A DNA stretch of 64,000 bases, from the sequence record OR896820.1, one strand, 5' to 3'. The stretch's first letter is position 1. Each line of letters starts with the position of its first letter. The notes beneath the pieces were generated by a model. It saw nothing but the letters and a program-made list of their open reading frames with translations. It did no database searches and was not told where the DNA came from. Source of the stretch: Escherchia phage Stokescottia. The translations under genes and the position numbers were made by a program. Below, piece by piece: positions 34,969 through 47,807 of the stretch.

Positions 34969-35174
34969 GTTTAGAACCACACTCTCGGTGTACAGCAACC
35001 ACCTATATGGGAGGCCAACCTTGACTGAAAATCTACTCTAGGGGGCAGGATAAGAGTAGGCTTAAAGGCAAACGGATTGAACGCCGGTATTTGCGTAAAC
35101 ATTGCTGGAGAGCAACAACGTGCTACAGGCATTGGGCAGCACGAAACAGATTTTCTGCAACACATAATTCCTCC

Positions 35175-36812: not shown

Positions 36813-36841
36813 TTGCTTGAATGCTAAATTCTCTGTATAAT
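36813..36841 (+). promoter_or_regulatory. early-type promoter
   Basis: TTGCTT, 17-nt spacer, TGTATAAT, then CTATAAATTTGAGAGAGG box. Confidence 0.6.
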
Positions 36842-36871
36842 ATATCTATAAATTTGAGAGAGGAACCAAAT

Positions 36872-37390
36872 ATGAATGTTGATGAGCTAACACAGCACCT
36901 CTTATCTAGAGGATTTGATACAGATAAATATCATTGCTGGTTAAGTCCGGAAGGGTGGCTAACAGTCCCGTTGTATGATTTCTCTGGAATGTTGAGGGGC
37001 TATCAAACTTATAATCCTTCTGCTCCAAAAGGTCATGGTAAGTGCCCCTTTGAAGCTAAATACTTTACTTATTCTACTACACAGTGTGTATGGGGACTAG
37101 AAACTCTCAATGGGGATGAAAAAGTAGTATTGATTGCTGAATCTGTATTTAAGGCAGTTGCATTACATAATGCTGGTTATCCAGCCCTAGCAATGTTAGG
37201 TTCTTCTCCAGGAAAAGCGTTATTAAAGCAACTGAAATTACTACCCTTTAAATTGGTAGCTGTCGGGGATAATGATCCTGCGGGTGAAAAATTTGCTAGA
37301 AAATTAAACGGCTTTGTTTCTCCCGTAGATGTGGATGAGATGTCTACCGAAAACTTGAAAAATTTTCTTGCTATGAAGCTAAATTTCTAA
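36872..37390 (+). CDS. Toprim-domain protein
   Basis: 173 aa; Glu in LIAESVF and DxD in VGDNDPAG suggest a Toprim fold. Confidence 0.45.
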   Translation: MNVDELTQHLLSRGFDTDKYHCWLSPEGWLTVPLYDFSGMLRGYQTYNPSAPKGHGKCPFEAKYFTYSTTQCVWGLETLNGDEKVVLIAESVFKAVALHNAGYPALAMLGSSPGKALLKQLKLLPFKLVAVGDNDPAGEKFARKLNGFVSPVDVDEMSTENLKNFLAMKLNF

Positions 37391-37505: not shown

Positions 37506-37583
37506 GGTTCTCAAGCTCATATGGTATGAGCACCCGGCTCATAACCGGAAGGTACGTAGGTTCGAATCCTCGGGGAGCCACCA
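37506..37583 (+). tRNA. tRNA with CAT anticodon (Met or Ile2)
   Basis: Acceptor GGTTCTC/GGGAGCC, D-stem GCTC/GAGC, anticodon loop CTCATAA; T-stem imperfect. Confidence 0.55.
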
Positions 37584-37799: not shown

Positions 37800-37985
37800 A
37801 TGTCTAAGTTTCAAGAACTCAAGCAAGAGCTAGAAGAATGTGCCTGCCCTGAGTGTAGGGGAATTGGTGAAAGTTCTGATGCAGAAGCAGGAGATACTTT
37901 TTGCAATATCTGGGTTTGCCCAAATTGCAAGGGTACAGGTATTAATCCTAACTGCGGTATTTCCCTAGATATTGAACGAGGATAA
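37800..37985 (+). CDS. hypothetical zinc-ribbon-like protein
   Basis: 61 aa with CxxC...CxxC (CACPECRG...CPNCKG). Confidence 0.4.
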   Translation: MSKFQELKQELEECACPECRGIGESSDAEAGDTFCNIWVCPNCKGTGINPNCGISLDIERG

Positions 37986-38086
37986 TACCTGTGAAACTAA
38001 AAGATTATTATATTGGTTGGTTTGTAGGACTAGTAGTAGGATTTTCACTAGGCTATAATATGTATCAACTAATAAACTGATTACAC

Positions 38087-38163
38087 GGGGGTGTAATCGA
38101 ATTGGCATAGGTACTGGACTTAAAATTCAGGTTTTGTGGGTTCGAATCCCACCACCACTACCA
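38087..38163 (+). tRNA. tRNA-Leu(TAA), atypical short variable loop
   Basis: Anticodon loop CTTAAAA, T-arm GTGGG TTCGAAT CCCAC, encoded CCA; one acceptor mismatch; 5-nt variable loop. Confidence 0.5.
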
Positions 38164-38338
38164 AATTAAGGAAATAAGATGTATAGACATCCACCTCCGC
38201 CAACACGTCGTTCTAGAGAAGTTATTCTCATGGAATTGACTAAAAACTTCAAGGCAACCCTTGAAGATAGAGATCTAGGCACGGATGAAGACATTGATTT
38301 TATTTGTAGACTATTAAAGATGAAACTGGAGAAACAAC

Positions 38339-38545
38339 ATGGCTAATCCTGAAATTACCGCACAACGTTTCATGCTTAAAGGTATGATTGCTGAGGCGGG
38401 TATAACTCAAGAGGTTGCAGATTTTCATAAGCAATTTCTTGATATTATAACTCTAGCTAAAGAGACTGGAGAAAAAGAGCACGGAGCAGCAATTATGGCT
38501 ATATCTCTTATTAGTCTAGACTTGGCTGAAGAATCTGGAGTTTAG
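38339..38545 (+). CDS. hypothetical protein
   Basis: 68-aa ORF. Confidence 0.35.
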   Translation: MANPEITAQRFMLKGMIAEAGITQEVADFHKQFLDIITLAKETGEKEHGAAIMAISLISLDLAEESGV

Positions 38546-38575
38546 CTCCTCCAAACAGAATTTTTAAAAATGTAC

Positions 38576-38605
38576 TTGCCTTTTGCTTTAAATTTCTGGT
38601 ATAAT
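38576..38605 (+). promoter_or_regulatory. early-type promoter
   Basis: TTGCCT, 18-nt spacer, TGgTATAAT, then TATAAATTGATGAAGGAG box. Confidence 0.55.
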
Positions 38606-38635
38606 AATTATATAAATTGATGAAGGAGTTAACTA

Positions 38636-38911
38636 ATGCAAAATCGTGTTATAGCTGCTGGTATTGAAAGTGCAATCTGTAAATCCTGGGAAGGCTGGGA
38701 AGGTGAGATTGAATGGCTTTATTTCTACGATGTAGAACTTCTGCCGGAAATTAAAGCTAAATGTATTGAAGCTGGCATGGCTCCAGATGCAAAAGCTGAT
38801 ATTGATATTTCAATGTCTGAACTTAAAGGTCGTGTAATCACTGTTAGTGATGAGGGCGAAGAAGTTTTTGAACTTCCGTTCTCCTTAACTGTCACTCCTA
38901 AGTTCGACTAA
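38636..38911 (+). CDS. hypothetical protein
   Basis: 91-aa ORF. Confidence 0.4.
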   Translation: MQNRVIAAGIESAICKSWEGWEGEIEWLYFYDVELLPEIKAKCIEAGMAPDAKADIDISMSELKGRVITVSDEGEEVFELPFSLTVTPKFD

Positions 38912-38947
38912 CTAATACAGCATTGGGCAAGTTCTTTAAAATTTGAC

Positions 38948-38976
38948 TTGCCCAATACTATAAAACTTGATATAAT
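38948..38976 (+). promoter_or_regulatory. early-type promoter overlapping a hairpin
   Basis: TTGCCC, 17-nt spacer, TGaTATAAT; -35 lies in the inverted repeat TTGGGCAAG...CTTGCCCAA. Confidence 0.45.
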
Positions 38977-39042
38977 ATTTATCTAATTTGGAAACATATT
39001 TAAAAGTGTTTAAATGAGAATTTTTTGAATACTTCTAAATAT

Positions 39043-39130
39043 GGGGAAATATTCTGTAAGTGGTAGCAGAGCTGACTGTAAATCAGTTGTCATTGCGACT
39101 CGGGTGGTTCGACTCCATCTTTCCCCACCA
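39043..39130 (+). tRNA. tRNA-Tyr(GTA)
   Basis: Acceptor GGGGAAA/TTTCCCC, anticodon loop CTGTAAA, long variable arm, encoded CCA. Confidence 0.7.
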
Positions 39131-39137
39131 ATTTAAT

Positions 39138-39212
39138 GCACCTATCGTCTAGCGGTTAGGACACCACTCTTTCACAGTGGGAACACGAGTTCGATCCTCG
39201 TTGGGTGTGCCA
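39138..39212 (+). tRNA. tRNA-Glu(TTC)
   Basis: Acceptor GCACCTA/TGGGTGT, anticodon loop CTTTCAC, T-arm ACGAG TTCGATC CTCGT, CCA. Confidence 0.7.
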
Positions 39213-39221
39213 ATTAATAAT

Positions 39222-39292
39222 TGGGGTACGCATAGGTTGCAAATGGGCCTCCAAAACCCATGAAAAGGTTTCGAATACCTTTACCCCTGCCA
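39222..39292 (+). tRNA. tRNA-Trp(CCA)-like
   Basis: Anticodon loop CTCCAAA, T-arm AAGGT TTCGAAT ACCTT, CCA; mismatches at 1-72 and in the D-stem. Confidence 0.45.
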
Positions 39293-39298
39293 AAATTT

Positions 39299-39373
39299 GC
39301 ACCTTTAGCTGAGATGGATTAGCGCTTGCCTGAAGAGCTTGAGAGGTTCGTTCGATACGAACAGGGTGCACCA
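39299..39373 (+). tRNA. tRNA-Phe(GAA)-like
   Basis: Acceptor GCACCTT/AGGGTGC, D-stem GCTG/TAGC, loop CTGAAGA; anticodon stem has two mismatches. Confidence 0.5.
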
Positions 39374-39390
39374 AATTGAAGGAGCTGCTG

Positions 39391-39663
39391 ATGCATCCTG
39401 AAAACTTCTTTATTTACTGCGCGGATAAGTCGCTGAAACGTAGAATTAACAAAGTCTATCATTATCGTGCTAGTCAACAGCCTTATGTATATGCTTTTGA
39501 CGGTGATCACATTCCCCTAGAACAATTATCTTGTGATTACATGATATTGAAGAACTTTGACGAGACGAAGATCTCAAGCGTTCATAATCGACAGAATCCA
39601 TTAACGTGGAAATATAAGAAGAAAAAGAAAGGCATCAAATTCTTAAAAAATGTAGTTGCTTAG
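39391..39663 (+). CDS. hypothetical protein
   Basis: 90-aa ORF starting at the first ATG after tRNA-Phe. Confidence 0.4.
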   Translation: MHPENFFIYCADKSLKRRINKVYHYRASQQPYVYAFDGDHIPLEQLSCDYMILKNFDETKISSVHNRQNPLTWKYKKKKKGIKFLKNVVA

Positions 39664-39684
39664 TTTCCAAAAGTTCTGTATAAT
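39656..39684 (+). promoter_or_regulatory. early-type promoter
   Basis: TTGCTT, 17-nt spacer, TGTATAAT, then CATAAATTGAACTGGAG box. Confidence 0.6.
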
Positions 39685-39713
39685 AATTACATAAATTGAA
39701 CTGGAGAAGCAAC

Positions 39714-39938
39714 ATGACAGAACAAGAATTGAATGAACGTAAGCTGGTAATGCTTCGCTTACTAAATATTTTCTCTGGTATGGACGGTGGAATTGACTTT
39801 GTTCTTCTACGTTCTTTCGTAGAAGAAGCCGAAGGCGAATCTATCACTAAAATCCTTAAACACATGGGATTACTTTTAGATGCTGCTAATGTGGCTACTG
39901 AATATAAACTAGAAGATCTACCGGAGCGTGTTAAATGA
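39714..39938 (+). CDS. hypothetical protein
   Basis: 74-aa ORF. Confidence 0.4.
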   Translation: MTEQELNERKLVMLRLLNIFSGMDGGIDFVLLRSFVEEAEGESITKILKHMGLLLDAANVATEYKLEDLPERVK

Positions 39939-40126
39939 AACGATTAGTTAGATTTAAGTGTTGTGGTTCTGAACATACTTTCACACATCTTCGTGAATTT
40001 AAAATGTGTGATTGTGGTAAATCAGGCTATGACTCAGGAGATGGGTTCTACACCCGTACTCTAGGGAACTTCAATGATCTAGAATTTGAAGATCTCGAAA
40101 AACAAGATAAATCGACCGTTGGCTGA
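39935..40126 (+). CDS. hypothetical zinc-ribbon-like protein
   Basis: 63 aa with CC...CDC Cys pairs. Confidence 0.35.
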   Translation: MKRLVRFKCCGSEHTFTHLREFKMCDCGKSGYDSGDGFYTRTLGNFNDLEFEDLEKQDKSTVG

Positions 40127-40188
40127 ATGGCTTAGGCGAAGGATTGCAAATCCTTTTTATGTGAGTTCAAATCTCATGCGGTCGTCCA
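40113..40188 (+). tRNA. tRNA-Cys(GCA)
   Basis: Acceptor CGACCGT/GCGGTCG, anticodon loop TTGCAAA, T-arm GTGAG TTCAAAT CTCAT, CCA; overlaps the end of the preceding ORF. Confidence 0.65.
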
Positions 40189-40340
40189 ATTTGCTGAAAG
40201 AATTGTTAAATCAATTCAGGCACGCGTAGGAACACTGTCTCCGTAATTGAAAGATGGGGCACGGTTTGGAGAGGTATGCCGCTACACGCTACGGTGCTAA
40301 CTCCGTCTAGGTGAAAATCCTAGTCAGCAATGTAAATTTA

Positions 40341-40423
40341 GGGTCGTTAGCCAAGCGGTTTGGCGGCGGATTGTTAATCCGTGTCGAAAGACAACGTAGG
40401 TTCGAATCCTACACGGCCCGCCA
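40341..40423 (+). tRNA. tRNA-Asn(GTT) with extended variable hairpin
   Basis: Acceptor GGGTCGT/ACGGCCC, D-stem GCCA/TGGC, loop TTGTTAA, 13-nt variable region GTCGAAAGACAAC, CCA. Confidence 0.6.
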
Positions 40424-40525
40424 AATTCTGTGTAGAGTTAAGTAAACCGGTAGCCAATCAGCTATCATTGCTGACATCGAATTCAGCCACAGATACCATT
40501 TTCATTAATAACTGAGGAAACAAGC

Positions 40526-40711
40526 ATGTCCAAGAATGTAATTGCACAGTTAGAAGTTCATCGTGATAGCACTATCAACAATATTGAAGTTGAGAAGAAA
40601 TACATCGAAGAACTTAAACATGATATACTAGTAAGTCTTAATCGTCTTAATGTACGAAAAGAGTTTCTTAAAGAACTTAATGCAGCTATTGAAAAACTCA
40701 AAGCTGAGTAA
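40526..40711 (+). CDS. hypothetical protein
   Basis: 61-aa ORF, probably coiled coil. Confidence 0.35.
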   Translation: MSKNVIAQLEVHRDSTINNIEVEKKYIEELKHDILVSLNRLNVRKEFLKELNAAIEKLKAE

Positions 40712-40720
40712 ATGAATTAT

Positions 40721-40797
40721 GCGACCGGGGCTGGCTTGGTAATGGTACTCCCCTGTCACGGGAGGGAATGTGGGTTCAAATCCCATCGGTCGCGCCA
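40721..40797 (+). tRNA. tRNA-Asp(GTC)
   Basis: Acceptor GCGACCG/CGGTCGC perfect, anticodon loop CTGTCAC, T-loop TTCAAAT, CCA. Confidence 0.7.
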
Positions 40798-40823
40798 AAC
40801 TAAACTAGCACGAGAAAAATGCT

Positions 40824-41171
40824 ATGATTAATGCTAAAGAAGAATTGTTACTTGCCCTAAAGAATACTAATTCTGAAGTTAAGTGTATTAAGATAGAATT
40901 CGGTTATTATGGGGACAAAGAAGTTTGGGTATTACCCGTAGGTTATACAGAAAAAGATATTGAAGATTTTCTAAATAATCTAGACTTTAAATATGATTCT
41001 GGTTTCGGTGGACAATTGCTTTATGGTAACGTATGGTTTACTGATGGAACTTGGTTAGAACGTGGTGAATATGATGGTTCTGAATGGTGGGAGTATAAGA
41101 CTACACCAGCAATCCCTGAGGAATGCCGAACAATTAATGGTGAGGTAGATAATACTTTACGGTTAAACTAA
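40824..41171 (+). CDS. hypothetical protein
   Basis: 115-aa ORF. Confidence 0.4.
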   Translation: MINAKEELLLALKNTNSEVKCIKIEFGYYGDKEVWVLPVGYTEKDIEDFLNNLDFKYDSGFGGQLLYGNVWFTDGTWLERGEYDGSEWWEYKTTPAIPEECRTINGEVDNTLRLN

Positions 41172-41563
41172 TAAAATTTCAGTGCAGAACACGGAGCTAG
41201 CAATTCGGAAGTGCTGACTCATGATAAGCTGCCTATGTACTTGCGAAGCGGTCGTGTCCAAGACTCGGACTCTTGCACTGAAAACAATCAAACATTCTAG
41301 CGTGGTTGATGGGGAAACCAGCTTGGCGAGGGCAGAAGCTCGTTCGATTCGAGTGAAAGAATGGTTCTCGTAAGTCCGCACAAGTGATAACAGGTTCGAG
41401 TCCTGTCTAGAATGACACTATAAAGTTTACTTATTATGTAGGTTCCGGTAGATCGGCGGGTCTATTCTGGCATTTAAGAGAGGTCTCGCAAACTTCTTTG
41501 TCAGCCGTGGGGTTGGTAGCCTCCAGGCGGCCTACACAATAAGTAAATTTATTAAAAATTCAT

Positions 41564-41592
41564 TTGCTATTCTGCTTAATTCTCTGTATAAT
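41564..41592 (+). promoter_or_regulatory. early-type promoter
   Basis: TTGCTA, 17-nt spacer, TGTATAAT. Confidence 0.6.
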
Positions 41593-41624
41593 ATATTTTA
41601 TAAAGTGAAGAGAAGGAAAGCAAA

Positions 41625-41783
41625 ATGAAACACAAGATAGCTCAAGTTTTTATGGCATTATGGTGTATGCCAATAGCTGTAACAGCTTTTAATCTAGATA
41701 CTTTTACTATAGAAGAAAAATATATCGGATTAGTTAGCGGCTTTAGTATACTTGGCTTATCTTTGTTGTGGTTGAAGAAATAA
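41625..41783 (+). CDS. hypothetical small membrane peptide
   Basis: 52-aa hydrophobic ORF right after promoter and SD; below track cut-off. Confidence 0.3.
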   Translation: MKHKIAQVFMALWCMPIAVTAFNLDTFTIEEKYIGLVSGFSILGLSLLWLKK

Positions 41784-41787
41784 TATT

Positions 41788-41865
41788 CTCCGTGTAGCTC
41801 AGTTTGGCCAGAGCGTTTCGTTTGGGGCGATAGGGTCGGGGGTTCAAATCCTCCCACGGAGACCA
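41788..41865 (+). tRNA. tRNA-Pro(TGG)
   Basis: Acceptor CTCCGTG/CACGGAG, D-stem GCTC/GAGC, loop TTTGGGG, CCA. Confidence 0.65.
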
Positions 41866-41871
41866 AACAAT

Positions 41872-41949
41872 TGCGGGTTAGATCTCTGGTAGAGATCGCT
41901 AGTCTCATAAGCTAGAAAGAGGTAGGTTCGATTCCTGCACCCGCTTCCA
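41872..41949 (+). tRNA. tRNA with CAT anticodon (Met or Ile2)
   Basis: Anticodon arm CTAGT CTCATAA GCTAG, T-arm GTAGG TTCGATT CCTGC, CCA; 1-72 mismatch. Confidence 0.55.
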
Positions 41950-42138
41950 TTTTAATAGGGGATTTCGAAATGAAAGTATTTCGATTAGTAGTAAGTGACA
42001 AACGTTTAGGTAAGAATACCTCAAAATCATTACTTGCTCATTATGGTAAAAATTGGGATGAAGTAATGGTAGAGTTTAATACTAATCACCCTTACTTGAA
42101 AGTTCACTCTATTAAAGAAGTATACAATGGTTACTAAT

Positions 42139-42217
42139 AGATCGCTAGCTCAATAGGTTTAGTAGCATCCGACTTTTAATCGGAAGGTTCTGGGTTCGAG
42201 TCCCAGGCGATCTACCA
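42139..42217 (+). tRNA. tRNA-Lys(TTT)
   Basis: Acceptor AGATCGC/GCGATCT, anticodon arm TCCGA CTTTTAA TCGGA, CCA. Confidence 0.7.
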
Positions 42218-42236
42218 ATTTCAAGAAAAAACGCAG

Positions 42237-42265
42237 TTGCTTGATGCTTAATTTCTTGTTATAAT
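42237..42265 (+). promoter_or_regulatory. early-type promoter with long RNA leader
   Basis: TTGCTT, 17-nt spacer, TGTTATAAT, then TATAAATTGATGAGGAG box; no ORF before tRNA-Ala. Confidence 0.6.
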
Positions 42266-42503
42266 ATTTATATAAATTGATGAGGAGAAATCCTCATCAT
42301 AGTTCACTAAGGTATTAGCTCGACCTAGGACTGGCTGCCAAAAAGCACGATCCCCATGATTCGGGAGAAGTTCTAGATTGGTCCACTAGATTCAGCGGCA
42401 ACTGAATAGTGTATTGGGTTTGCGAGATGACGCAGTTCCTTCCGCTCGAAGCGAAGGTGCTGTAGTTACGCCGAGCTAATAGCCTTAGTAAACTAAAGAA
42501 TTT

Positions 42504-42582
42504 GGGGAATGGGTCTGCATGGAGTGGACACCTCGCTTGCACCGAGGACATCAGAACGGTTCGATTCCGTTATTCTCCACCA
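42504..42582 (+). tRNA. tRNA-Ala(TGC)
   Basis: Acceptor GGGGAAT/ATTCTCC with G3-U70, anticodon arm CCTCG CTTGCAC CGAGG, CCA. Confidence 0.7.
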
Positions 42583-42587
42583 AATAC

Positions 42588-42664
42588 GCGTGATTGATGG
42601 AATTGGCATACATACCGTCCTTAGAAGTCGGGTTTTGAGGGTTCGAATCCCTTGTCACGCACCA
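42588..42664 (+). tRNA. tRNA-Leu(TAG), atypical short variable loop
   Basis: Acceptor GCGTGAT/GTCACGC, loop CTTAGAA, T-arm GAGGG TTCGAAT CCCTT, CCA; 5-nt variable loop. Confidence 0.5.
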
Positions 42665-42776
42665 AATTTGATGGTCAGAGTAAATTAAACCTACTATCTC
42701 GGTTGAGCTGTTTTAATGGGTTCGAATCCCAGCGAGGCGTAACTGCCTGGTGTGATAGAGGCATCATCTTATTATT

Positions 42777-42867
42777 GGAAGAGCAAATCGAATTGGCGAC
42801 GAAAACCGCTTGGAAAGTGGCTGACTGGTAAAACGGCTTGAGAGTTCAAATCTCTCCTCTTCCGCCA
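42777..42867 (+). tRNA. tRNA-Ser(GGA)
   Basis: Acceptor GGAAGAG/CTCTTCC, loop TTGGAAA, long variable arm, T-arm GAGAG TTCAAAT CTCTC, CCA. Confidence 0.65.
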
Positions 42868-42886
42868 AACACTTGAGGTAATAATA

Positions 42887-43234
42887 ATGCTAGCAAAAGA
42901 TAAAGCTCTAGAGTTTTTAGCATCTTTAGATGAAGATAAGATTATAGATGCTGCTGAAAAAGCTGGAATGCCAGATTTAACATATCTGGAACGTGCTATT
43001 ATTGCTCGTGATAAACTACAGAAAGAGTTTGCTATTGCTCAGGAGGAGTTTTATACTCGCTATAACGCTCTTACTAAGCAAATTGAAAATGAGTGTTCTC
43101 ATACTTGGGGAGTAACAGAAAACCTAGGTAATGATCACGATGGCTGGTCTAAAGTAAAAATTACCTACTACCATCGTAGGACTTGTAAAATTTGTGGAAA
43201 AGTAGAAAACTTCACTAGTACGAGTGACTATTAG
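42887..43234 (+). CDS. hypothetical protein
   Basis: 115-aa ORF with C-terminal CxxC pair. Confidence 0.4.
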   Translation: MLAKDKALEFLASLDEDKIIDAAEKAGMPDLTYLERAIIARDKLQKEFAIAQEEFYTRYNALTKQIENECSHTWGVTENLGNDHDGWSKVKITYYHRRTCKICGKVENFTSTSDY

Positions 43235-43247
43235 TATAATAAATACT

Positions 43248-43337
43248 AGAAGATAGGACGTAGTGGTACGTAACTGGTCTTGAAAACTAGCCCGCTGTAG
43301 TGATACGGTGATGGTTCGACTCCATTATCTTCTGCCA
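43248..43337 (+). tRNA. tRNA-Ser(TGA)
   Basis: Acceptor AGAAGAT/ATCTTCT, anticodon arm CTGGT CTTGAAA ACTAG, long variable arm, CCA. Confidence 0.65.
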
Positions 43338-43889
43338 ATTAACTATAAGGAAATCTTATGAGCAAAACAGTTACTGTAACAATGAAGGATGGTAAAAAAT
43401 TTAAAGCATGTCTTCATGAAACAGATAAGGGATGGATGGCTTATTTGCCACACCTAGATTCCACCAGGTACGGAATGACCCAACGTGAAGCTATTGTTGA
43501 TGCTTTAAATGAGGCTTCTGCTGGTTTATAAAAATTCTTGAAGTATGCCGGAATTGGTAGACGGGGCTGCCTAAAAGGTTTATAGAGAACATCCACTCTC
43601 TACAACATACCTCATAAAGCGGCTGAGATAAATGGTCTATCTCGTGAAGGTTCAAGTCCTTCTGCTTCTTGATACATCTATGGCTCAAAGTGTAACGGTG
43701 CTATTTGATGCTCTTAGTAAGACTTCCCCGACATGCGTTCGGGAGTAAGCTGCTAAGGCTAGAGTAGAAGAGTTTCTGAGAGCCGCCACAATTGAAAATT
43801 CGTACTCGTCTTGAGCTGCGTGCAATAGGAGATAACTTGATTAGTATTCTAGAACATGCTAATTGAGGAAGGTTTCGCTAACCCTGCGA

Positions 43890-43966
43890 GTTTTCAATTG
43901 TGGCTATATCATAATTGGTTAATGATCCTGATTGTGAATCAGGCCTATGTGGATTCGAGTTCCACT
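43890..43966 (+). tRNA. tRNA-His(GTG)
   Basis: Acceptor GTGGCTA/TAGCCAC, D-stem TCAT/ATGA, anticodon arm CCTGA TTGTGAA TCAGG, CCA. Confidence 0.7.
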
Positions 43967-44001
43967 AGCCACCCCAAATTAACTTAAATAGGAAATAATA
44001 T

Positions 44002-44202
44002 ATGGCTGATTTCTGCAAACAATGCTCCATTGATATGTGGGGCAGAGATACTGGTGATCTTTCTGGTTTGATTACAGAAGCCGAAGTTAAAGAAGGCTAC
44101 GGTGCTGTTGTAATCTGTGAAGGTTGTGGTGTTATTCGTGTAGATCATGAAGGCAAACGTCTAGAAGAACCAGAACCAATAGCCACGGTTCCTGTAGAGT
44201 AA
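44002..44202 (+). CDS. hypothetical zinc-ribbon-like protein
   Basis: 66 aa with CKQC...CEGCG. Confidence 0.4.
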   Translation: MADFCKQCSIDMWGRDTGDLSGLITEAEVKEGYGAVVICEGCGVIRVDHEGKRLEEPEPIATVPVE

Positions 44203-44210
44203 AGAATTAT

Positions 44211-44286
44211 TGGAGTGTAGATCAATTGGCAGATCGTCGGCCTCTGACTTCGAAGGTTCCTGGTTCGATCCCAGGCACTCCAGCCA
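44211..44286 (+). tRNA. tRNA-Gln(CTG)
   Basis: Acceptor TGGAGTG/CACTCCA, loop CTCTGAC, T-arm CCTGG TTCGATC CCAGG, CCA. Confidence 0.65.
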
Positions 44287-44292
44287 AATAAT

Positions 44293-44368
44293 TGGAGAGT
44301 AGTGTAACGGTTAGCACAACGGCCTTTGACTCCGTTAATGGTAGGTTCGATTCCTCCTTCTCCAGCCA
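44293..44368 (+). tRNA. tRNA-Gln(TTG)
   Basis: Acceptor TGGAGAG/TTCTCCA, loop CTTTGAC, CCA; paralog of the preceding tRNA. Confidence 0.65.
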
Positions 44369-44376
44369 AACAATAA

Positions 44377-44452
44377 GCGGTTAAGCACACGGGTTGTGTC
44401 GCAGGCCTTCCAAGCCTCGCTGAGTAGGGTTCGATTCCCTCTAGCCGCTCCA
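44377..44452 (+). tRNA. tRNA-Gly(TCC)
   Basis: Acceptor GCGGTTA/TAGCCGC, anticodon loop CTTCCAA, T-loop TTCGATT, CCA. Confidence 0.6.
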
Positions 44453-44468
44453 ACTTTAAGGAAACGTT

Positions 44469-44690
44469 ATGCACGTTTTTGAGTTTCGTAATAAAAGTAC
44501 CGATAAACGAGTTATTGTTATTGGAGAAACATACCGAGCATATGAACAAACTGACGGCTCTGTTATCCTGAATGATGAGAAAGGGGGTTTTAGCTTTTAT
44601 CCCAAAGAAACTTACGAAGAATTTCGTACAAAGTTTCTTCTACCAGACTGGCTAGAAGTAGCGCAGCAACGAGAACCCGAAGATGGCTGA
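44469..44690 (+). CDS. hypothetical protein
   Basis: 73-aa ORF. Confidence 0.4.
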   Translation: MHVFEFRNKSTDKRVIVIGETYRAYEQTDGSVILNDEKGGFSFYPKETYEEFRTKFLLPDWLEVAQQREPEDG

Positions 44691-44855
44691 TAACCTAAAA
44701 GTCAAGATCGATAAACAAAAGAAACGTGTAGAAGTAGAGATTGGTGAAGAACGTGTAGCCTTCACCTTTGAATTTCTACAACAAATGGCAATGACAGTCA
44801 TGACTGATAAGTCTCCTGTTATTGAAAAAGAAATCCCGTTGAAATAACGGGTTCT

Positions 44856-44942
44856 GCTGGGTTGGCAGAATGGTTGAATGCACCTGATTTGTAATCAGGA
44901 GGAGTAATCCCATTGCAGGTTCGAATCCTGTGCCCAGCACCA
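44856..44942 (+). tRNA. type-II tRNA (long variable arm) with apparent TGT anticodon
   Basis: Acceptor GCTGGGT/GCCCAGC, 3-bp D-stem with 11-nt D-loop, anticodon arm CCTGA TTTGTAA TCAGG, 15-nt variable arm, CCA. Confidence 0.5.
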
Positions 44943-44956
44943 ATTTAAGGACTAGT

Positions 44957-45124
44957 ATGTTTAAACTGTTAGTAGTTATCTGGTATAGTCAATCAAATAG
45001 AGCGAATACCTCCCACGTTATAGACTTTAATACTAAAAATGAAGCTGAAAAAGCATATGCTAATTTAATAGAACGTAATAAAGAATCTCGTAGTATAGTT
45101 TATGAAGTGACTAAACTTTATTAA
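44957..45124 (+). CDS. hypothetical protein
   Basis: 55-aa ORF from the first ATG after the tRNA. Confidence 0.3.
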   Translation: MFKLLVVIWYSQSNRANTSHVIDFNTKNEAEKAYANLIERNKESRSIVYEVTKLY

Positions 45125-45131
45125 AAATTCA

Positions 45132-45160
45132 TTTGCTTTCTCTCTTATTTCTTGTTATAA
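45132..45160 (+). promoter_or_regulatory. early-type promoter
   Basis: TTGCTT, 17-nt spacer, TGTTATAAT, then TATAAATTAATGAGAGGG box. Confidence 0.6.
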
Positions 45161-45191
45161 TACTTGTATAAATTAATGAGAGGGAAACCAA

Positions 45192-45485
45192 ATGAAACGT
45201 TATCTTTCTGTTATGTTCCAAACTGGTGGTCAACGCTATACCTATGAATTTCCATCTTCTTGGAAAATCAAAGAAGGTGATCAAGTAGTTGTACTAACAC
45301 CGCGTGATGGGTACAAGGTAGTAACGGTTAAGCAAGTCTTTCCAAAAGATTATACACCATCTAAGTCTATTAATTATAAGATGATTCATGGTGTAGTTCG
45401 TCAAGTACCCCGAGTGGACATCGAGGTCAAAGTAGATAAAGATGGTAAACTTAAATATACCTCTTGCTTAGAAGAGTTGCTATAA
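45192..45485 (+). CDS. hypothetical protein
   Basis: 97-aa ORF. Confidence 0.45.
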   Translation: MKRYLSVMFQTGGQRYTYEFPSSWKIKEGDQVVVLTPRDGYKVVTVKQVFPKDYTPSKSINYKMIHGVVRQVPRVDIEVKVDKDGKLKYTSCLEELL

Positions 45486-45691
45486 TGAGGATTACTTTTA
45501 CAGAAAAGATCATGAGTAATGGTGTTATGATCATTACTGCATGGGATGGTAATCAGTGGTGTAGTGTTTCAGGTATTAAGCCTGAAGAACAAACACTAGA
45601 AAATATCTCAAAGATTAAGCGAAGAATGGCAGAACGTGCACGACTTCCAGGTGCACCTAGAAATGGCAAACGTTCTGCAATTAAATGTTAA
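45485..45691 (+). CDS. hypothetical protein
   Basis: 68-aa ORF; TAATG stop/start overlap with the previous gene. Confidence 0.4.
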   Translation: MRITFTEKIMSNGVMIITAWDGNQWCSVSGIKPEEQTLENISKIKRRMAERARLPGAPRNGKRSAIKC

Positions 45692-45692
45692 T

Positions 45693-45769
45693 GCTTCGGT
45701 AGCTTAGCGATCTAAAGCACTCGGCTGATAACCGAGAGATCGGGGGTTTAAATCCCTCCCGGAGTACCA
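45693..45769 (+). tRNA. tRNA-Ile(GAT)
   Basis: Acceptor GCTTCGG/CCGGAGT, anticodon arm CTCGG CTGATAA CCGAG, T-loop TTTAAAT, CCA. Confidence 0.65.
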
Positions 45770-45865
45770 AATTTAGGAATTAAGACTATGCGTCCAGGAA
45801 AGTTTAAAAAAGCTAATTGGTCTAAAGAGTATAAAGAATACTTACTTAGTCTAGTAAAACATAAC

Positions 45866-45941
45866 AGTTAGTTGGCAGAGTGGTTATGCACCTCCTTCAT
45901 ACGGAGCGACTACAGTGGTTCAAATCCACTACTAACTACCA
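45866..45941 (+). tRNA. tRNA with CAT anticodon (third copy)
   Basis: Acceptor AGTTAGT/ACTAACT, anticodon loop TTCATAC, T-arm AGTGG TTCAAAT CCACT, CCA. Confidence 0.55.
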
Positions 45942-45978
45942 TTAAAATAGCTAGAGATAGCTAAATTTAGGAGCAGCT

Positions 45979-46173
45979 ATGTTAACAATTAAAATAATGT
46001 CAGCCAAGAATGGGGAACAGATTCACACAGGCAAAAGTGTAAGCTTTAATCCTAGAAATAAAAGATTGGCTATAGTTAGAGTAGACCAAGCCATCTTTTT
46101 AAAAGAAGATGAAGTAGCATATGTCATGAACCAAACTGGTAAGACAGTTTCCGTATACTATGGAAAAGTATAA
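45979..46173 (+). CDS. hypothetical protein
   Basis: 64-aa ORF. Confidence 0.4.
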   Translation: MLTIKIMSAKNGEQIHTGKSVSFNPRNKRLAIVRVDQAIFLKEDEVAYVMNQTGKTVSVYYGKV

Positions 46174-46215
46174 AGAATAAAGAGCTGAGCCAAATTCTAA
46201 CATCGGGGAGATCTA

Positions 46216-46584
46216 ATGAAAGCATATCAAAATCTTAAATCTGGCGTAATTAACCTTGTTCATGAAAATCAGATTATTCAGCTATACTCCGACAACGGTG
46301 AACTTAAACAGAAAGTTCTAGTTGAAGATCTAGAAGGTATCACACCACAATTCGATCCTGAAGCCTTCCGTGAAGTTAAGGTGGAAGTCGCACCTCAAAT
46401 CGAAGGTGGTCAGCACCTAAATGTCAATGTGTTAAGTCGTGATCAGCTTTTGGATGCACAGAAACACCCTGAAAAATACCCTCAATTAACTATCCGTGTA
46501 TCTGGCTACGCTGTTCGATTTAACGCGCTGACTCGTGAACAACAGAACGACGTTATTAGTCGTACATTTACTCAGGCGATGTAA
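46216..46584 (+). CDS. grcA: autonomous glycyl-radical cofactor, GrcA/YfiD-like
   Basis: C-terminal half [11 protein letters not shown]...[37 protein letters not shown] matches E. coli GrcA as I recall it, including RVSGY. Confidence 0.8.
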
Positions 46585-46665
46585 TGGGGTTTGGATACGA
46601 TTTCTCCCAGCTACGCAAGGTAGTCGAGCAAACTCCATTTATCTCCCAAGTTTTAGGAGAAATGT

Positions 46666-46980
46666 GTGGATCGAGCATTGAGACGCCATCACCGGCAACG
46701 TGTGAAGAACAACCGCAAGAAGTATTGGACAGTCTTCCCACATGAAGAAAGCCCTAAGCGGTTAGGTATTATCACTACTACTCCTTGCATCTGTTCTTGT
46801 TGGATGTGTGGGAACCCTCGCAAATATTATAAGAATAGTAAAGCAGGCATGAAAATCTCGGAGATTAGGAAAATGGAAGCAATGATTATGGGCATCTCAA
46901 ATGATGAATTTGATGGCTTTGTAGGATTCGGAGAAGGAATCAGCTCAGGCTGTTTCGAAGATGAACGCCCCGATCTGTAA
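46666..46980 (+). CDS. hypothetical basic Cys-rich protein
   Basis: 104 aa, apparent GTG start after AGGAGA; CICSCWMCG motif. Confidence 0.35.
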   Translation: MDRALRRHHRQRVKNNRKKYWTVFPHEESPKRLGIITTTPCICSCWMCGNPRKYYKNSKAGMKISEIRKMEAMIMGISNDEFDGFVGFGEGISSGCFEDERPDL

Positions 46981-46989
46981 TTAATAACA

Positions 46990-47026
46990 AACCCCAGCTA
47001 TTGAATAAGTAGTCTGGGGTTTTTCT
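46990..47026 (+). terminator. rho-independent terminator
   Basis: AACCCCAG...CTGGGGTT hairpin followed by TTTTCTGTAT. Confidence 0.6.
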
Positions 47027-47101
47027 GTATACAGGAAAATAGTTTATGTATAATAAAATTCATCCACATTAGGTTAATTTAAAAGACTTAATGGAGGTAA
47101 T

Positions 47102-47449
47102 ATGAGCCGTACTTATCGTAGACAATCTGGTGATCAGTGGTGGAAATCTAAAGAACAATTCTCTCAAGAATATTCTTTCCTCAAAGAAAATGGCTACTGG
47201 ATTCGCGTTATTTATGCCAAATCCTGGGACGACATCAAAAAAGAAATGAAGGAAGCAACCATTCGTAATGAGAAAAAGGATGGTTATAACTGGAATTCTA
47301 TTAGTAAGAATGTTAAGTGGCATTCTAATAAAATGGTTCGTCAAGGGAATCGTCAAGAACTCCACCGCGTGATGAAAGATCCAGAAAATTATGACTATAA
47401 TCGCGATCATGACATGCGTAAGCGTGGATTATGGTGGTGCTATGACTAA
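47102..47449 (+). CDS. hypothetical protein
   Basis: 115-aa ORF. Confidence 0.45.
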   Translation: MSRTYRRQSGDQWWKSKEQFSQEYSFLKENGYWIRVIYAKSWDDIKKEMKEATIRNEKKDGYNWNSISKNVKWHSNKMVRQGNRQELHRVMKDPENYDYNRDHDMRKRGLWWCYD

Positions 47450-47466
47450 ATTCTGAAATAATTCAT

Positions 47467-47495
47467 TTGCTAAACCTCTCTTTTCTTGCTATAAT
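47467..47495 (+). promoter_or_regulatory. early-type promoter
   Basis: TTGCTA, 17-nt spacer, TATAAT, then TATAAATTGATGAGAGAGG box. Confidence 0.6.
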
Positions 47496-47525
47496 ATGTT
47501 TATAAATTGATGAGAGAGGTTTGAA

Positions 47526-47807
47526 ATGAAAACTCGTCTAGACTGTGCTGTTCATGTTCTTGAACATGATGTTGCGGGAACCTGTATGTCTTACCACGAA
47601 GCAGGTCGTTTAATTAAAGAACGTGTGGCAGATGTGTGCGGATTGAAGATTACTGCTGAGGAAGCTGATGATCTTTTAGGCCAAGCACTGGAGAAAACCG
47701 AAATGTTTCTCTGCGATTCTTGTTCTTGGTGGTGTGAAGCTCACGAACGTTCTTTCAACGATTATGATGTATGTCGTGATTGTAGTGGGGAGGATGAAGA
47801 TGAGTAA
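47526..47807 (+). CDS. hypothetical Cys-rich acidic protein
   Basis: 93 aa with CDSCSWWC and CRDCSGEDEDE. Confidence 0.4.
   Translation: MKTRLDCAVHVLEHDVAGTCMSYHEAGRLIKERVADVCGLKITAEEADDLLGQALEKTEMFLCDSCSWWCEAHERSFNDYDVCRDCSGEDEDE

What the first reader, a model, noticed from the sequence alone, without database searches (positions are those of the whole stretch)
37800..47807. Several small Cys-pair (zinc-ribbon-like) ORFs scattered through the tRNA island
ORFs at 37800-37985, 39935-40126, 44002-44202, 46666-46980 and 47526-47807 each carry paired CxxC motifs in 60-100 aa. Small zinc-ribbon proteins placed between tRNA genes could be nucleic-acid-binding regulators or host-takeover factors.
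Basis: inference. Interest (0 to 1): 0.4.

Follow-up and report, generated by a model that had tools for sequence, protein, structure and literature searches.

The report
Small cysteine-cluster genes in T5-like phage
The five small cysteine-rich reading frames are real, conserved genes of a T5-like phage from five unrelated families that probably each bind a zinc ion, but they are already catalogued as hypothetical proteins, their function is unknown, and nothing ties them to the neighbouring tRNA genes.

Summary
The window is a T5-like phage (Tequintavirus), 95-97% identical to sequenced phages. All five ORFs exist at the stated coordinates. They have Shine-Dalgarno-like sequences, are under purifying selection (dN/dS 0.08-0.24) and match PHROG families.

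The description is only partly right. Two CxxC pairs occur in three ORFs: 37800, 44002 and 47526. ORF 39935 has CC...CxC and no CxxC. ORF 46666 has a C-x-C-x-C-xx-C cluster. The last two ORFs lie beyond the last tRNA gene.

Profile comparison shows five unrelated families:
- A is a single DnaJ-type CxxCxGxG zinc centre, mislabelled 'antitermination protein Q'.
- B is a sub-threshold DUF7695 relative.
- C is a confidently modelled fold with no PDB match, also present in Felix O1-like and jumbo phages.
- D has an arginine-rich helix followed by CSCWMCGNPR.
- E is restricted to T5-like phages.

Relatives of A, C and D mostly lie far from tRNA genes. Published work shows that a deletion of about 8 kb in the tRNA-rich region leaves the phage viable, and it maps anti-retron activity to other genes. 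Function is unknown; this is ordinary phage accessory content.

The parts
37800..37985 (+). ORF A, 61 aa. It has an N-terminal helix-like segment and two CxxCxGxG motifs (C16, C19, C40, C43), which would form one DnaJ-type Zn(Cys)4 centre. It belongs to phrog_6060 and is often annotated 'antitermination protein Q(-like)'. It is absent from T5 itself and from SP15.
   Evidence: ORF and AAGGAG Shine-Dalgarno sequence. PHROG match E=1.7e-33. dN/dS 0.21. 192 representatives at 50% clustering. C16, C19, C40, C43 and G47 invariant, G21, G23 and G45 nearly invariant. The family profile hits the DnaJ Cys-rich domain 1exk at E=7e-6, the lambda Q zinc finger at 1.7e-3 and anti-TRAP at 0.025. Found in 294 phage records.
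39935..40126 (+). ORF B, 63 aa, with a CC...CxC cluster (C9, C10, C25, C27). It belongs to phrog_7042 and is a sub-threshold DUF7695 relative. Its start overlaps the stop of the upstream ORF (ATGA). Its last 14 nt, including the stop codon, lie inside tRNA-Cys (40113-40188).
   Evidence: PHROG match E=4.9e-37. DUF7695 scores 22.2 bits against a cut-off of 25, and relatives score 20-24.7. The four Cys are invariant down to 50% identity. dN/dS 0.24. Found in 296 records, all T5-like. Truncated in phiP4.
44002..44202 (+). ORF C, 66 aa, equivalent to T5.062. It has two CxxC pairs (C5, C8, C39, C42), the signature MADFCKQCS...CEGCG, and belongs to phrog_2210. It is near-universal in T5-like phages and also occurs in Felix O1-like, Pseudomonas and jumbo phages.
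   Evidence: 66 IMG/VR loci. 88 protein clusters, none with a Pfam domain. M1, A2, F4, C5, C8, C39, E40, C42 and G51 invariant. AF2 pLDDT 93.2. No PDB fold match, best E=1.5. BFVD matches are all uncharacterised proteins. Found in 835 phage records. dN/dS 0.08.
46666..46980 (+). ORF D, 104 aa, equivalent to T5.055. It has a GTG start 6 nt after AGGAG, an Arg/His-rich N-terminal helix (RALRRHHRQRVKNNRKK), the cluster C41-x-C43-S-C45-W-M-C48-GNPRK, and a variable acidic C-terminal tail (DEFDGF...EDERPDL). It matches phrog_4499 and phrog_6828. It is the last gene before the terminator annotated in T5.
   Evidence: Phage L014 has ATG at the same position. Invariant columns. The wider family keeps RAxRR...CSCWMCGN but not C41. 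AF2 gave a poor model, pLDDT 51, with helices 3-21 and 59-74. Found in 489 records, including Erwinia, Serratia and Rhizobium large phages, and 144 IMG/VR relatives. dN/dS 0.19.
47526..47807 (+). ORF E, 93 aa, equivalent to T5.053. It has a variable N-terminal part and a C-terminal FLCDSCSWWC...CRDC motif followed by an acidic tail. C20, C63, C66, C70, C83 and C86 are invariant. It belongs to phrog_2855 and is preceded by a TTGCTA-17-TATAAT promoter-like site at 47467-47495. Its end overlaps the start of the next gene by 8 nt.
   Evidence: T5 has a promoter annotated immediately upstream of T5.053. Invariant columns at 32-37% identity. Found in 518 records, all T5-like. Only 6 clusters in the protein database. 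dN/dS 0.11.
42887..43234 (+). It carries C70-x-H72 ... C100-xx-C103 and is a possible sixth metal-binding small protein in the island. It belongs to phrog_36910.
   Evidence: PHROG match E=4.7e-81. Present in 5 of the fetched T5-like loci. dN/dS 0.05 from few substitutions.
46584..46745 (+). Mini-ORF of 53 aa upstream of D that overlaps D's start in another frame. Its first ~22 residues are homologous to the N-terminal extension fused in frame to the D homologue in Yersinia phage phiR2-01, which suggests the two were once one gene or are functionally linked.
   Evidence: It is annotated as a separate CDS (E0157_056) in phage SP15.

Best explanation
These are five unrelated, genuinely protein-coding accessory genes of the early-transcribed, tRNA-rich part of a T5-like phage genome.

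Each protein is too small for a large hydrophobic core. It most plausibly folds around one structural zinc ion held by its invariant cysteines:
- A: four Cys in two DnaJ-type CxxCxGxG motifs.
- B: CC...CxC.
- C: two CxxC pairs.
- D: CxCxxC, plus an extra Cys in the T5 clade and possibly a His.
- E: CxxC...CxxC, plus two further invariant Cys.

The folded mini-domains then probably act as binding modules for a host or phage macromolecule. A and C most likely bind proteins, as the DnaJ Cys-rich domain and anti-TRAP do. D more likely binds nucleic acid through its arginine-rich helix.

The genes sit among tRNA genes because T5-like phages pack tRNAs and short accessory ORFs into the same short early operons, not because the proteins act on tRNA.

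Shown: the ORFs exist, are under purifying selection, have invariant Cys, belong to five separate families with the stated distributions, and are not linked to tRNA genes in relatives. Inferred: zinc binding, expression, binding partners and any role in host takeover.
For: Identity of the window: 95-97% nucleotide identity to Tequintavirus genomes.

Coding:
- dN/dS is 0.08-0.24 for all five.
- All have Shine-Dalgarno-like sequences.
- PHROG matches range from E=1e-31 to 1e-41.
- T5 annotates C, D and E as T5.062, T5.055 and T5.053, with a promoter and a terminator flanking them.

Cys invariance: A, B, C, D, E. Cys clustering is far above chance.

Five separate families: hhalign probability is below 1% for the four family pairs compared, C-A, C-E, B-C and D-E.

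A is a DnaJ-type centre: the family profile matches the DnaJ Cys-rich domain at E=7e-6. C has a confident compact model, pLDDT 93.

Not tRNA-bound:
- 29 of 38 distant C loci have no tRNA within 10 kb and no conserved neighbour.
- 43 of 50 non-T5 D loci have no tRNA within 4 kb.
- One A relative sits in an array of tiny ORFs with no tRNA.

Accessory character:
- A and B are found in about 295 records each, against about 440 close T5-like records counted by the DNA polymerase.
- T5 and SP15 mutants that have spontaneously lost about 8 kb of the tRNA-rich region are viable (PMC11555353).
Against: - No metal-binding, expression or phenotype data exist for any of the five. No paper mentions T5.053, T5.055 or T5.062.
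- D has only three Cys conserved family-wide, so a classical Cys4 site is not assured, and its model is poor.
- I could not inspect model coordinates, so the Cys geometry in C is not verified.
- The homologue sets for C and D were gathered with seeds that include the Cys motifs. This inflates apparent invariance at those motifs.
- C, D and E are nearly universal in close T5-like phages, so 'accessory' may understate their importance.
- The published deletion probably covers A, B and C but perhaps not D and E. Its exact end points were not available.
Confidence: 0.7

Rival explanations
1. Anti-defence island reading. The tRNA-rich region is a counter-defence locus, and at least one of the five Cys proteins is a dedicated inhibitor of a bacterial immune system or of a host takeover target. 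It would work by stoichiometric binding, as small anti-restriction and anti-CRISPR proteins do.
For: - The same region encodes proven counter-defence elements: tRNA-Tyr against retron Eco7 and ORF75 against Eco2 and Eco7 (PMC11555353). ORF75 corresponds to 36821-37390 in the window, just upstream of A.
- A and B show patchy presence, as accessory genes do.
- An A relative lies in a small-ORF array that also holds a Lar restriction-alleviation homologue.
Against: - In the nine-fragment test of the SP15 region, only the fragments carrying tRNA-Tyr and ORF75 rescued the phage from Eco2 or Eco7. The fragment holding the C homologue therefore did not, at least for those two retrons.
- The authors found few known anti-defence genes in the region.
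- No family match hints at such a role.
Confidence: 0.3
2. tRNA-linked function. The proteins bind, process, protect or regulate the neighbouring phage tRNAs or their precursor transcripts.
For: - A, B and C lie between tRNA genes, and B's stop codon lies inside tRNA-Cys.
- Five of 50 non-T5 D-family loci have a tRNA within 1 kb. One D relative sits inside a 20-tRNA array (L133) and others sit directly beside tRNAs (L104, L130).
Against: - Most relatives of C and D, and the one A relative examined, have no tRNA nearby.
- The five families are unrelated, so no common tRNA-related activity is implied.
- There is no similarity to known tRNA enzymes.
- In temperate-type phages, D relatives lie after Q-like regulators or before lysis or terminase genes. 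That is a moron-rich spot where tRNAs also tend to accumulate.
Confidence: 0.07
3. ORF A is a Q-type transcription antiterminator, as many GenBank records and phrog_6060 label it.
For: It is annotated 'antitermination protein Q(-like)' in many records. The family profile matches the zinc-finger stretch of lambda Q (4mo1 residues 79-116, E=1.7e-3).
Against: - The match covers only the roughly 36-residue Zn module and is weaker than the matches to DnaJ (7e-6) and UvrA (2e-4).
- A is 61 aa, against 207 aa for lambda Q.
- No Pfam antiterminator family appears even at E<=1.
Confidence: 0.04
4. The cysteines serve redox chemistry, an iron centre (rubredoxin-like) or disulfide bonds rather than structural zinc.
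For: E has six invariant Cys and A has extra Cys in the T5 clade. DnaJ-type zinc centres have reported thiol-disulfide activity (established knowledge). There are weak rubredoxin-type Pfam hits for an A relative.
Against: The proteins are cytoplasmic, with no signal peptides. The motif spacing is typical of zinc sites. The rubredoxin hits are far below threshold (14 bits against 23).
Confidence: 0.07
5. The ORFs are chance reading frames or decayed fragments of the HNH homing endonucleases that populate this region in T5.
For: T5 carries hegA, hegC, hegD and hegE in the same region. hegA sits where A is and hegD sits next to C.
Against: Purifying selection acts on all five, and the families are conserved across hundreds of genomes. 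There is no significant similarity to the T5 endonucleases and no HNH Pfam hit.
Confidence: 0.02

Closest known systems
DnaJ cysteine-rich (CxxCxGxG) zinc-finger domain, PF00684; PDB 1exk
   Same: ORF A and its family carry two CxxCxGxG motifs with invariant Cys and Gly. This is the best profile match among solved structures (E=7e-6).
   Different: DnaJ has four motifs forming two zinc centres inside a protein of about 375 aa that also has J and C-terminal domains. A is a stand-alone 61-aa protein with two motifs, enough for one centre, and a conserved DDAxxGD loop. It scores below Pfam's cut-off, 16 bits against 32.7.
Anti-TRAP (RtpA) of Bacillus subtilis, PF15777
   Same: It is a stand-alone protein of about 53 aa built on one DnaJ-type Zn(Cys)4 centre, and it works by binding and blocking another protein. 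It is the closest functional analogy for A. There are weak sequence matches (Pfam 16.9 bits; PDB profile E=0.025-0.065).
   Different: All matches are below threshold. The spacer between motifs is about 20 residues in A against about 10 in anti-TRAP (the latter from memory). No TRAP-like target is known in enterobacteria.
Lambda Q antitermination protein (PDB 4mo1, 7ubm)
   Same: It shares a Cys4 zinc-finger stretch with A's family (E=1.7e-3). This is the source of the database label.
   Different: Q is 207 aa with DNA- and RNA polymerase-binding regions that A lacks. There is no Pfam Q-family match.
DUF7695 (PF24749)
   Same: B and its relatives align to positions 7-52 of this 58-position profile at E=2e-5 to 6e-4.
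   Different: All scores (20-24.7 bits) fall below the 25-bit gathering score. The family itself has no known function, and no paper mentions it.
Partial DnaJ domain with two CxxCxGxG motifs inside the DNA polymerase of HMO-2011-type marine phages
   Same: It is another phage use of exactly two CxxCxGxG zinc-binding motifs (PMC9038755).
   Different: There the module is inserted into a polymerase. Here it is a free-standing small protein. No sequence comparison was made.
Lar restriction-alleviation protein (PF14354) and similar small Cys4 phage early proteins
   Same: It is a small cysteine-pair protein encoded in phage early or accessory ORF arrays, with a counter-defence role. A Lar homologue lies 2.7 kb from an A relative in L151.
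   Different: None of the five ORFs matches PF14354. The analogy is by kind only.

Membership tests
Classical zinc ribbon (two CxxC knuckles on beta-hairpins) | Two CxxC (or CxxH) pairs separated by a spacer | tested here: inconclusive
   Met by A, C and E. Not met by B (CC...CxC) or D (contiguous CxCxCxxC).
Classical zinc ribbon (two CxxC knuckles on beta-hairpins) | Ligand residues invariant among homologues | tested here: met
   A: C16, C19, C40, C43. B: C9, C10, C25, C27. C: C5, C8, C39, C42. D: C43, C45, C48, but not C41. E: C63, C66, C83, C86, plus C20 and C70.
Classical zinc ribbon (two CxxC knuckles on beta-hairpins) | Both knuckles sit in beta-hairpin turns | tested here: not met
   Tested only for C. 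In the AF2 model (pLDDT 93), C39 and C42 lie in the turn between strands 35-39 and 43-47, but C5 and C8 lie at the start of helix 6-13. This is a knuckle-plus-helix (treble-clef-like) layout.
Classical zinc ribbon (two CxxC knuckles on beta-hairpins) | Stoichiometric zinc bound | not testable with these tools
   Needs metal analysis of purified protein.
DnaJ_CXXCXGXG (PF00684) / Anti-TRAP (PF15777), for ORF A | Repeated CxxCxGxG motif | tested here: met
   CPECRGIG and CPNCKGTG. The Cys and Gly positions are invariant or nearly so in 44 family members.
DnaJ_CXXCXGXG (PF00684) / Anti-TRAP (PF15777), for ORF A | Score at or above Pfam's gathering threshold | tested here: not met
   DnaJ_CXXCXGXG scores 16.0 bits against 32.7 and Anti-TRAP scores 16.9 against 32. 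Relatives reach 20-24 bits. The family profile against PDB DnaJ 1exk gives E=7e-6.
Lambda-type antitermination protein Q, for ORF A | Match to a Q family model over the body of the protein, at a comparable length | tested here: not met
   No Q family appears in the Pfam or NCBIfam output at E<=1. A is 61 aa against 207 aa. Similarity is confined to 36 residues of the zinc finger.
Lambda-type antitermination protein Q, for ORF A | Modifies RNA polymerase at a late promoter so that it reads through terminators | not testable with these tools
   Needs transcription assays.
DUF7695 (PF24749), for ORF B | Score at or above the gathering threshold of 25 bits | tested here: not met
   22.2 bits for the window protein and 24.7, 20.9 and 20.0 for three relatives. 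The hits are consistent but all below threshold, so B is a probable distant relative and not a certified member.
PHROG families 6060, 7042, 2210, 4499/6828 and 2855 | Significant full-length match to the family profile | tested here: met
   E=1.7e-33, 4.9e-37, 2.9e-38, 7.1e-41 (plus 1e-16) and 2.2e-31. Four are 'unknown function'; phrog_6060 is labelled Q-like.
HNH homing endonuclease (remnant) | Similarity to an HNH core or to the T5 heg genes | tested here: not met
   No Pfam HNH hit. BLASTP against hegA, hegC, hegD and hegE gives only short Cys-motif matches.

The most novel reading that the evidence does not exclude
At least one of the five is a previously unrecognised counter-defence or host-takeover inhibitor that works by zinc-stabilised binding to a conserved bacterial protein. 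This would make the tRNA-rich region a mixed RNA-and-protein anti-defence island. The leading candidates are A (an anti-TRAP-like DnaJ-type finger) and C (a confidently folded domain with no PDB match, shared by T5-like, Felix O1-like and jumbo phages).
Probability: 0.3. Interest if true: 0.55.

Novelty: already known. Interest (0 to 1): 0.22.

Why it matters
As it stands this matters little. The genes are 96-100% identical to proteins already deposited for hundreds of T5-like phages and already grouped in PHROGs. Small cysteine-cluster proteins are common in phage early regions.

Three practical points come out of the check:
- The widespread label 'antitermination protein Q' on ORF A rests only on a shared zinc module and should not be trusted.
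- Family C is a widely distributed, confidently modelled mini-fold without a solved counterpart, which makes it a cheap structural-genomics target.
- The ORFs lie in or next to a region now known to carry counter-defence tRNAs and an anti-retron gene, so they are reasonable candidates for deletion screens against defence-system panels.

Tried and rejected
- **Literature.** Searches for T5.053, T5.055, T5.062, T5.070 and DUF7695 found nothing. General T5 searches gave only context.
- **Fold of C.** A PDB fold search gave no match (best E=1.5), and a PDB sequence-profile search gave only chance hits.
- **Structure of D.** AlphaFold2 gave pLDDT 51, so I made no fold search with it.
- **PDB relatives of B, D and E.** Profile searches gave chance-level hits only.
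- **More A loci.** Fetching A-family loci from an alignment failed because no stretch was conserved enough. I examined only one A relative's context.
- **Conserved neighbours.** I looked for neighbours that might hint at function. None was found for C. For D the context is variable: after Q-like regulators, before holin or endolysin, before terminase, or after DnaB.
- **Common origin of the five.** Rejected for the four family pairs compared by hhalign.
- **HNH endonuclease remnants.** Rejected.
- **Defence-system proteins.** No PADLOC match.
- **Frameshift joining the mini-ORF at 46584 to D.** I think this unlikely. The D frame has a TAG four codons before its start, there is no slippery site, a strong AGGAG precedes the GTG, and one phage has ATG there.
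- **Anti-retron gene.** I checked whether the published anti-retron determinant (ORF75 of SP15) is one of the five. It is not. It is the Toprim 'primase' gene at 36821-37390.

Full report
**What the window is.** The region 37.5-48 kb matches more than 1,200 phage records. The best matches are 95-97% identical over 90-95% of the query, and all of them are T5-like phages (Tequintavirus and related Demerecviridae). Annotated relatives (phiP4, slur09, T5, SP15) show the same layout: a run of tRNA genes interspersed with short + strand ORFs, flanked by a Toprim 'primase' gene on one side and a GrcA-like gene on the other. ARAGORN finds 21 tRNA genes in the window, 20 of them between 37412 and 45941. 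Rfam adds one at 37506-37580.

**The observation.** All five ORFs exist at the stated coordinates on the + strand.
- A (37800-37985, 61 aa) has CPEC and CPNC.
- C (44002-44202, 66 aa) has CKQC and CEGC.
- E (47526-47807, 93 aa) has CDSC and CRDC.
- B (39935-40126, 63 aa) has no CxxC at all. Its four Cys are C9-C10 and C25-x-C27.
- D (46666-46980, 104 aa, GTG start) has one contiguous cluster, C41-x-C43-x-C45-xx-C48.

So 'paired CxxC' is right for three of five. A, B and C lie between tRNA genes. D and E begin 0.7 and 1.6 kb beyond the last tRNA.

The Cys clustering is not chance. I used a crude greedy set of 121 ORFs with an overall Cys frequency of 1.5%. Four proteins carry two CxxC against 0.125 expected from residue shuffles, and none of 2,000 shuffles reached four. 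Seven small proteins carry two Cys knuckles against 0.25 expected. A sixth candidate in the island, F (42887-43234; C-x-H ...

**Are they genes?** Each has a Shine-Dalgarno-like sequence at a suitable distance: AAGGAG for A, AGGAG for D, GAGG for E, GGAG with an ATGA start/stop overlap for B, and AGGAA for C. I fetched 66 related loci from IMG/VR and recovered the homologues by tblastn. Summed Nei-Gojobori comparisons against the window give dN/dS of 0.21 (A), 0.24 (B), 0.08 (C), 0.19 (D) and 0.11 (E). All five match PHROG profiles at E=1e-31 to 1e-41. By coordinates, C, D and E are T5.062, T5.055 and T5.053. T5's annotation places a promoter just upstream of T5.053 and a terminator just after T5.055. 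A TTGCTA-17-TATAAT site lies at 47467-47495 in the window. D's GTG start is backed by an ATG at the same position in one relative and by a TAG four codons upstream in the same frame. There are no direct expression data.

- A: 44 family members at 30-62% identity keep C16, C19, C40, C43 and G47 invariant, with G21, G23 and G45 nearly so. That is two CxxCxGxG motifs. The other three Cys of the window protein are not conserved.
- B: C9, C10, C25 and C27 are invariant down to 50% identity. The two His are not.
- C: C5, C8, C39 and C42 are invariant in 40 sequences down to 40% identity. Most distant members carry an extra C-x4-C-x4-H cluster that the T5 clade has lost.
- D: among 16 sequences, C43, C45 and C48 and the N-terminal R/H positions are invariant. 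Across 50 more distant phage and prophage relatives the consensus is RAxRR...CSCWMCGN(P)R, and C41 is usually replaced. Only three Cys are family-wide.
- E: homologues at 32-37% identity from Klebsiella and Epseptimavirus phages keep C20, C63, C66, W68, W69, C70, C83 and C86.

The test therefore did not refute. One caveat applies: the C and D homologue sets were gathered with seeds that include the Cys motifs.

**Five families, not one.** Profile-profile comparisons of four family pairs (C-A, C-E, B-C, D-E) give probabilities below 1%.

**Family A.** This family has 192 representatives at 50% clustering in an exhaustive HMMER search. Its profile matches:
- the DnaJ Cys-rich domain best (1exk, E=7e-6; 6jzb, 7e-5);
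- then a UvrA zinc module (2e-4);
- then the zinc finger of lambda Q (4mo1 residues 79-116, 1.7e-3);
- then anti-TRAP (0.025-0.065).

Pfam hits to DnaJ_CXXCXGXG and Anti-TRAP are consistent but below threshold. The common label 'antitermination protein Q(-like)' therefore rests on a shared 36-residue zinc module. A is 61 aa against 207 aa for Q, and it matches no Q family model.

**Family B.** B hits DUF7695 at 20-24.7 bits against a cut-off of 25. It is confined to T5-like phages (296 records).

**Family C.** C has 88 protein clusters with no Pfam domain and occurs in 835 phage records, including Felix O1-like, Pseudomonas and large myoviruses. AlphaFold2 gives a confident model (pLDDT 93.2). 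C5 and C8 sit at the start of helix 6-13, and C39 and C42 sit in the turn between strands 35-39 and 43-47. That is a knuckle-plus-helix arrangement rather than a classical ribbon. Foldseek finds nothing in the PDB (best E=1.5). In BFVD it finds only uncharacterised proteins of PSTCR5, Felix O1, Sugarland, Lana and BcepSauron.

**Family D.** D occurs in 489 records, including Erwinia, Serratia and Rhizobium large phages, and has 144 IMG/VR relatives. Its model is poor (pLDDT 51) and shows only helices 3-21 and 59-74.

**Family E.** E is restricted to T5-like phages (518 records; 6 clusters). B, D and E have no PDB sequence relatives.

**Counts against a denominator.** About 441 records carry a DNA polymerase at least 90% identical to the window's. 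C, D and E are therefore close to universal in close T5-like phages. A and B are present in roughly two thirds, and both are missing from T5 and SP15.

**Link to tRNA genes.**
- Of 38 distant C loci with up to 10 kb of flank, 29 contain no tRNA. No neighbouring gene family recurs with C.
- Of 50 non-T5 D loci with 4 kb flanks, 43 contain no tRNA. Five have one within 1 kb, including one D relative inside a 20-tRNA array. This trend is weak and I could not control it properly.
- In temperate-type contigs, D relatives sit after Q-like regulators, before holin or endolysin, or directly before terminase genes.
- One A relative sits in an array of 50-100-aa ORFs beside a Lar restriction-alleviation homologue and a peptide deformylase, with no tRNA.

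The position among tRNAs thus reflects how T5-like phages organise their accessory early operons. It does not point to a shared tRNA-related function.

**What is known about the region.** Azam et al. (PMC11555353) report that T5 and SP15 spontaneously lose about 8 kb of this tRNA-rich region and remain viable, but become sensitive to retrons Eco2 and Eco7. Of nine cloned fragments, only those with tRNA-Tyr and with ORF75 restored infection. The authors found few known anti-defence genes in the region. ORF75 is the 189-aa Toprim gene, which is 36821-37390 in the window, and not one of the five ORFs. No paper in the library mentions T5.053, T5.055 or T5.062. None of the five matches a PADLOC model or the T5 homing endonucleases.

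**Most likely mechanism.** Each protein probably folds around one structural zinc ion held by its invariant Cys and acts as a small binding module.
- For A, the analogy with the DnaJ Cys-rich domain and anti-TRAP favours protein binding.
- For D, the arginine/histidine-rich N-terminal helix and acidic tail favour nucleic-acid binding or competition with a nucleic-acid-binding partner.
- For B, C and E there is no basis for choosing.

The existence of the genes, the selection on them, the Cys invariance, the family separation and the lack of tRNA linkage are shown. Zinc binding, expression and partners are inferred.

**Verdict.** The zinc-binding idea survives its test. The functional idea remains open. 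The genes are already deposited and catalogued as hypothetical proteins in hundreds of genomes, so this is ordinary phage accessory content with modest follow-up value. The follow-up points are the mislabelled 'Q' annotation, the unmatched fold of family C, and candidacy for counter-defence screens.

Noticed in passing
window 46584-46745 (+): A 53-aa mini-ORF ([27 protein letters not shown]...) starts on the stop codon of the GrcA-like gene and overlaps D's start in another frame. Its first ~22 residues are homologous to an N-terminal extension that is fused in frame to the D homologue in Yersinia phage phiR2-01 and Salmonella phage UTK0009. This is a gene fission or fusion.
   Followed up: partly
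window 40113-40126: The last four sense codons and the stop codon of ORF B lie inside tRNA-Cys (acceptor stem and D arm). RNase P cleavage of the precursor would therefore leave B's mRNA without a stop codon. Many GenBank records show the same overlap.
   Followed up: partly
L069 10628-10756 (T5 record 34627-34755, T5.070): At the position of B, T5 itself carries a different 42-aa ORF with CxCxxC...CxxC (MTEQEKELCICYECGDQDYYSKTGKKVCGNCGSDHVATYYER). The slot next to tRNA-Cys therefore holds alternative Cys-cluster mini-genes in different phages.
   Followed up: no
window 42887-43234 (+): A 115-aa ORF carries C70-x-H72 and C100-xx-C103 (phrog_36910).
   Followed up: partly
window 34971-35165 (-): A 64-aa ORF has eight Cys arranged as four CC pairs (MCCRKSVSCCPMPVARCC...GGCC). 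It lies on the opposite strand, in the operon that corresponds to T5.077-T5.079.
   Followed up: no
window 36821-37390 (+): The 189-aa Toprim protein annotated 'DNA primase' corresponds to ORF75 of phage SP15. That gene is the published determinant that lets T5-like phages escape retrons Eco2 and Eco7, and its mechanism is still uncharacterised.
   Followed up: partly
window 37506-37580 (+): Rfam's tRNA model scores 40.3 bits here, but ARAGORN did not report a gene. T5 annotates tRNA-Ile2(CAU) at the equivalent place, and phiP4 annotates a tRNA-Met on the opposite strand.
   Followed up: no
L133 3801-4303; L104 4001-4281; L130 3669-4162: In three non-T5 phage contigs, distant D-family genes lie directly beside tRNA genes. 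In L133 the gene sits inside a 20-tRNA array, and its 3' end appears to overlap a tRNA-Gly. Overall, 5 of 50 loci have a tRNA within 1 kb, a weak association that I could not control for properly.
   Followed up: partly
A1 alignment, columns after the CEGCG motif: Most distant members of family C carry an additional C-x4-C-x4-H cluster (for example GKCVSEDCLxxxH) that the T5-like clade has lost. The ancestral protein may therefore have bound two metal ions.
   Followed up: no
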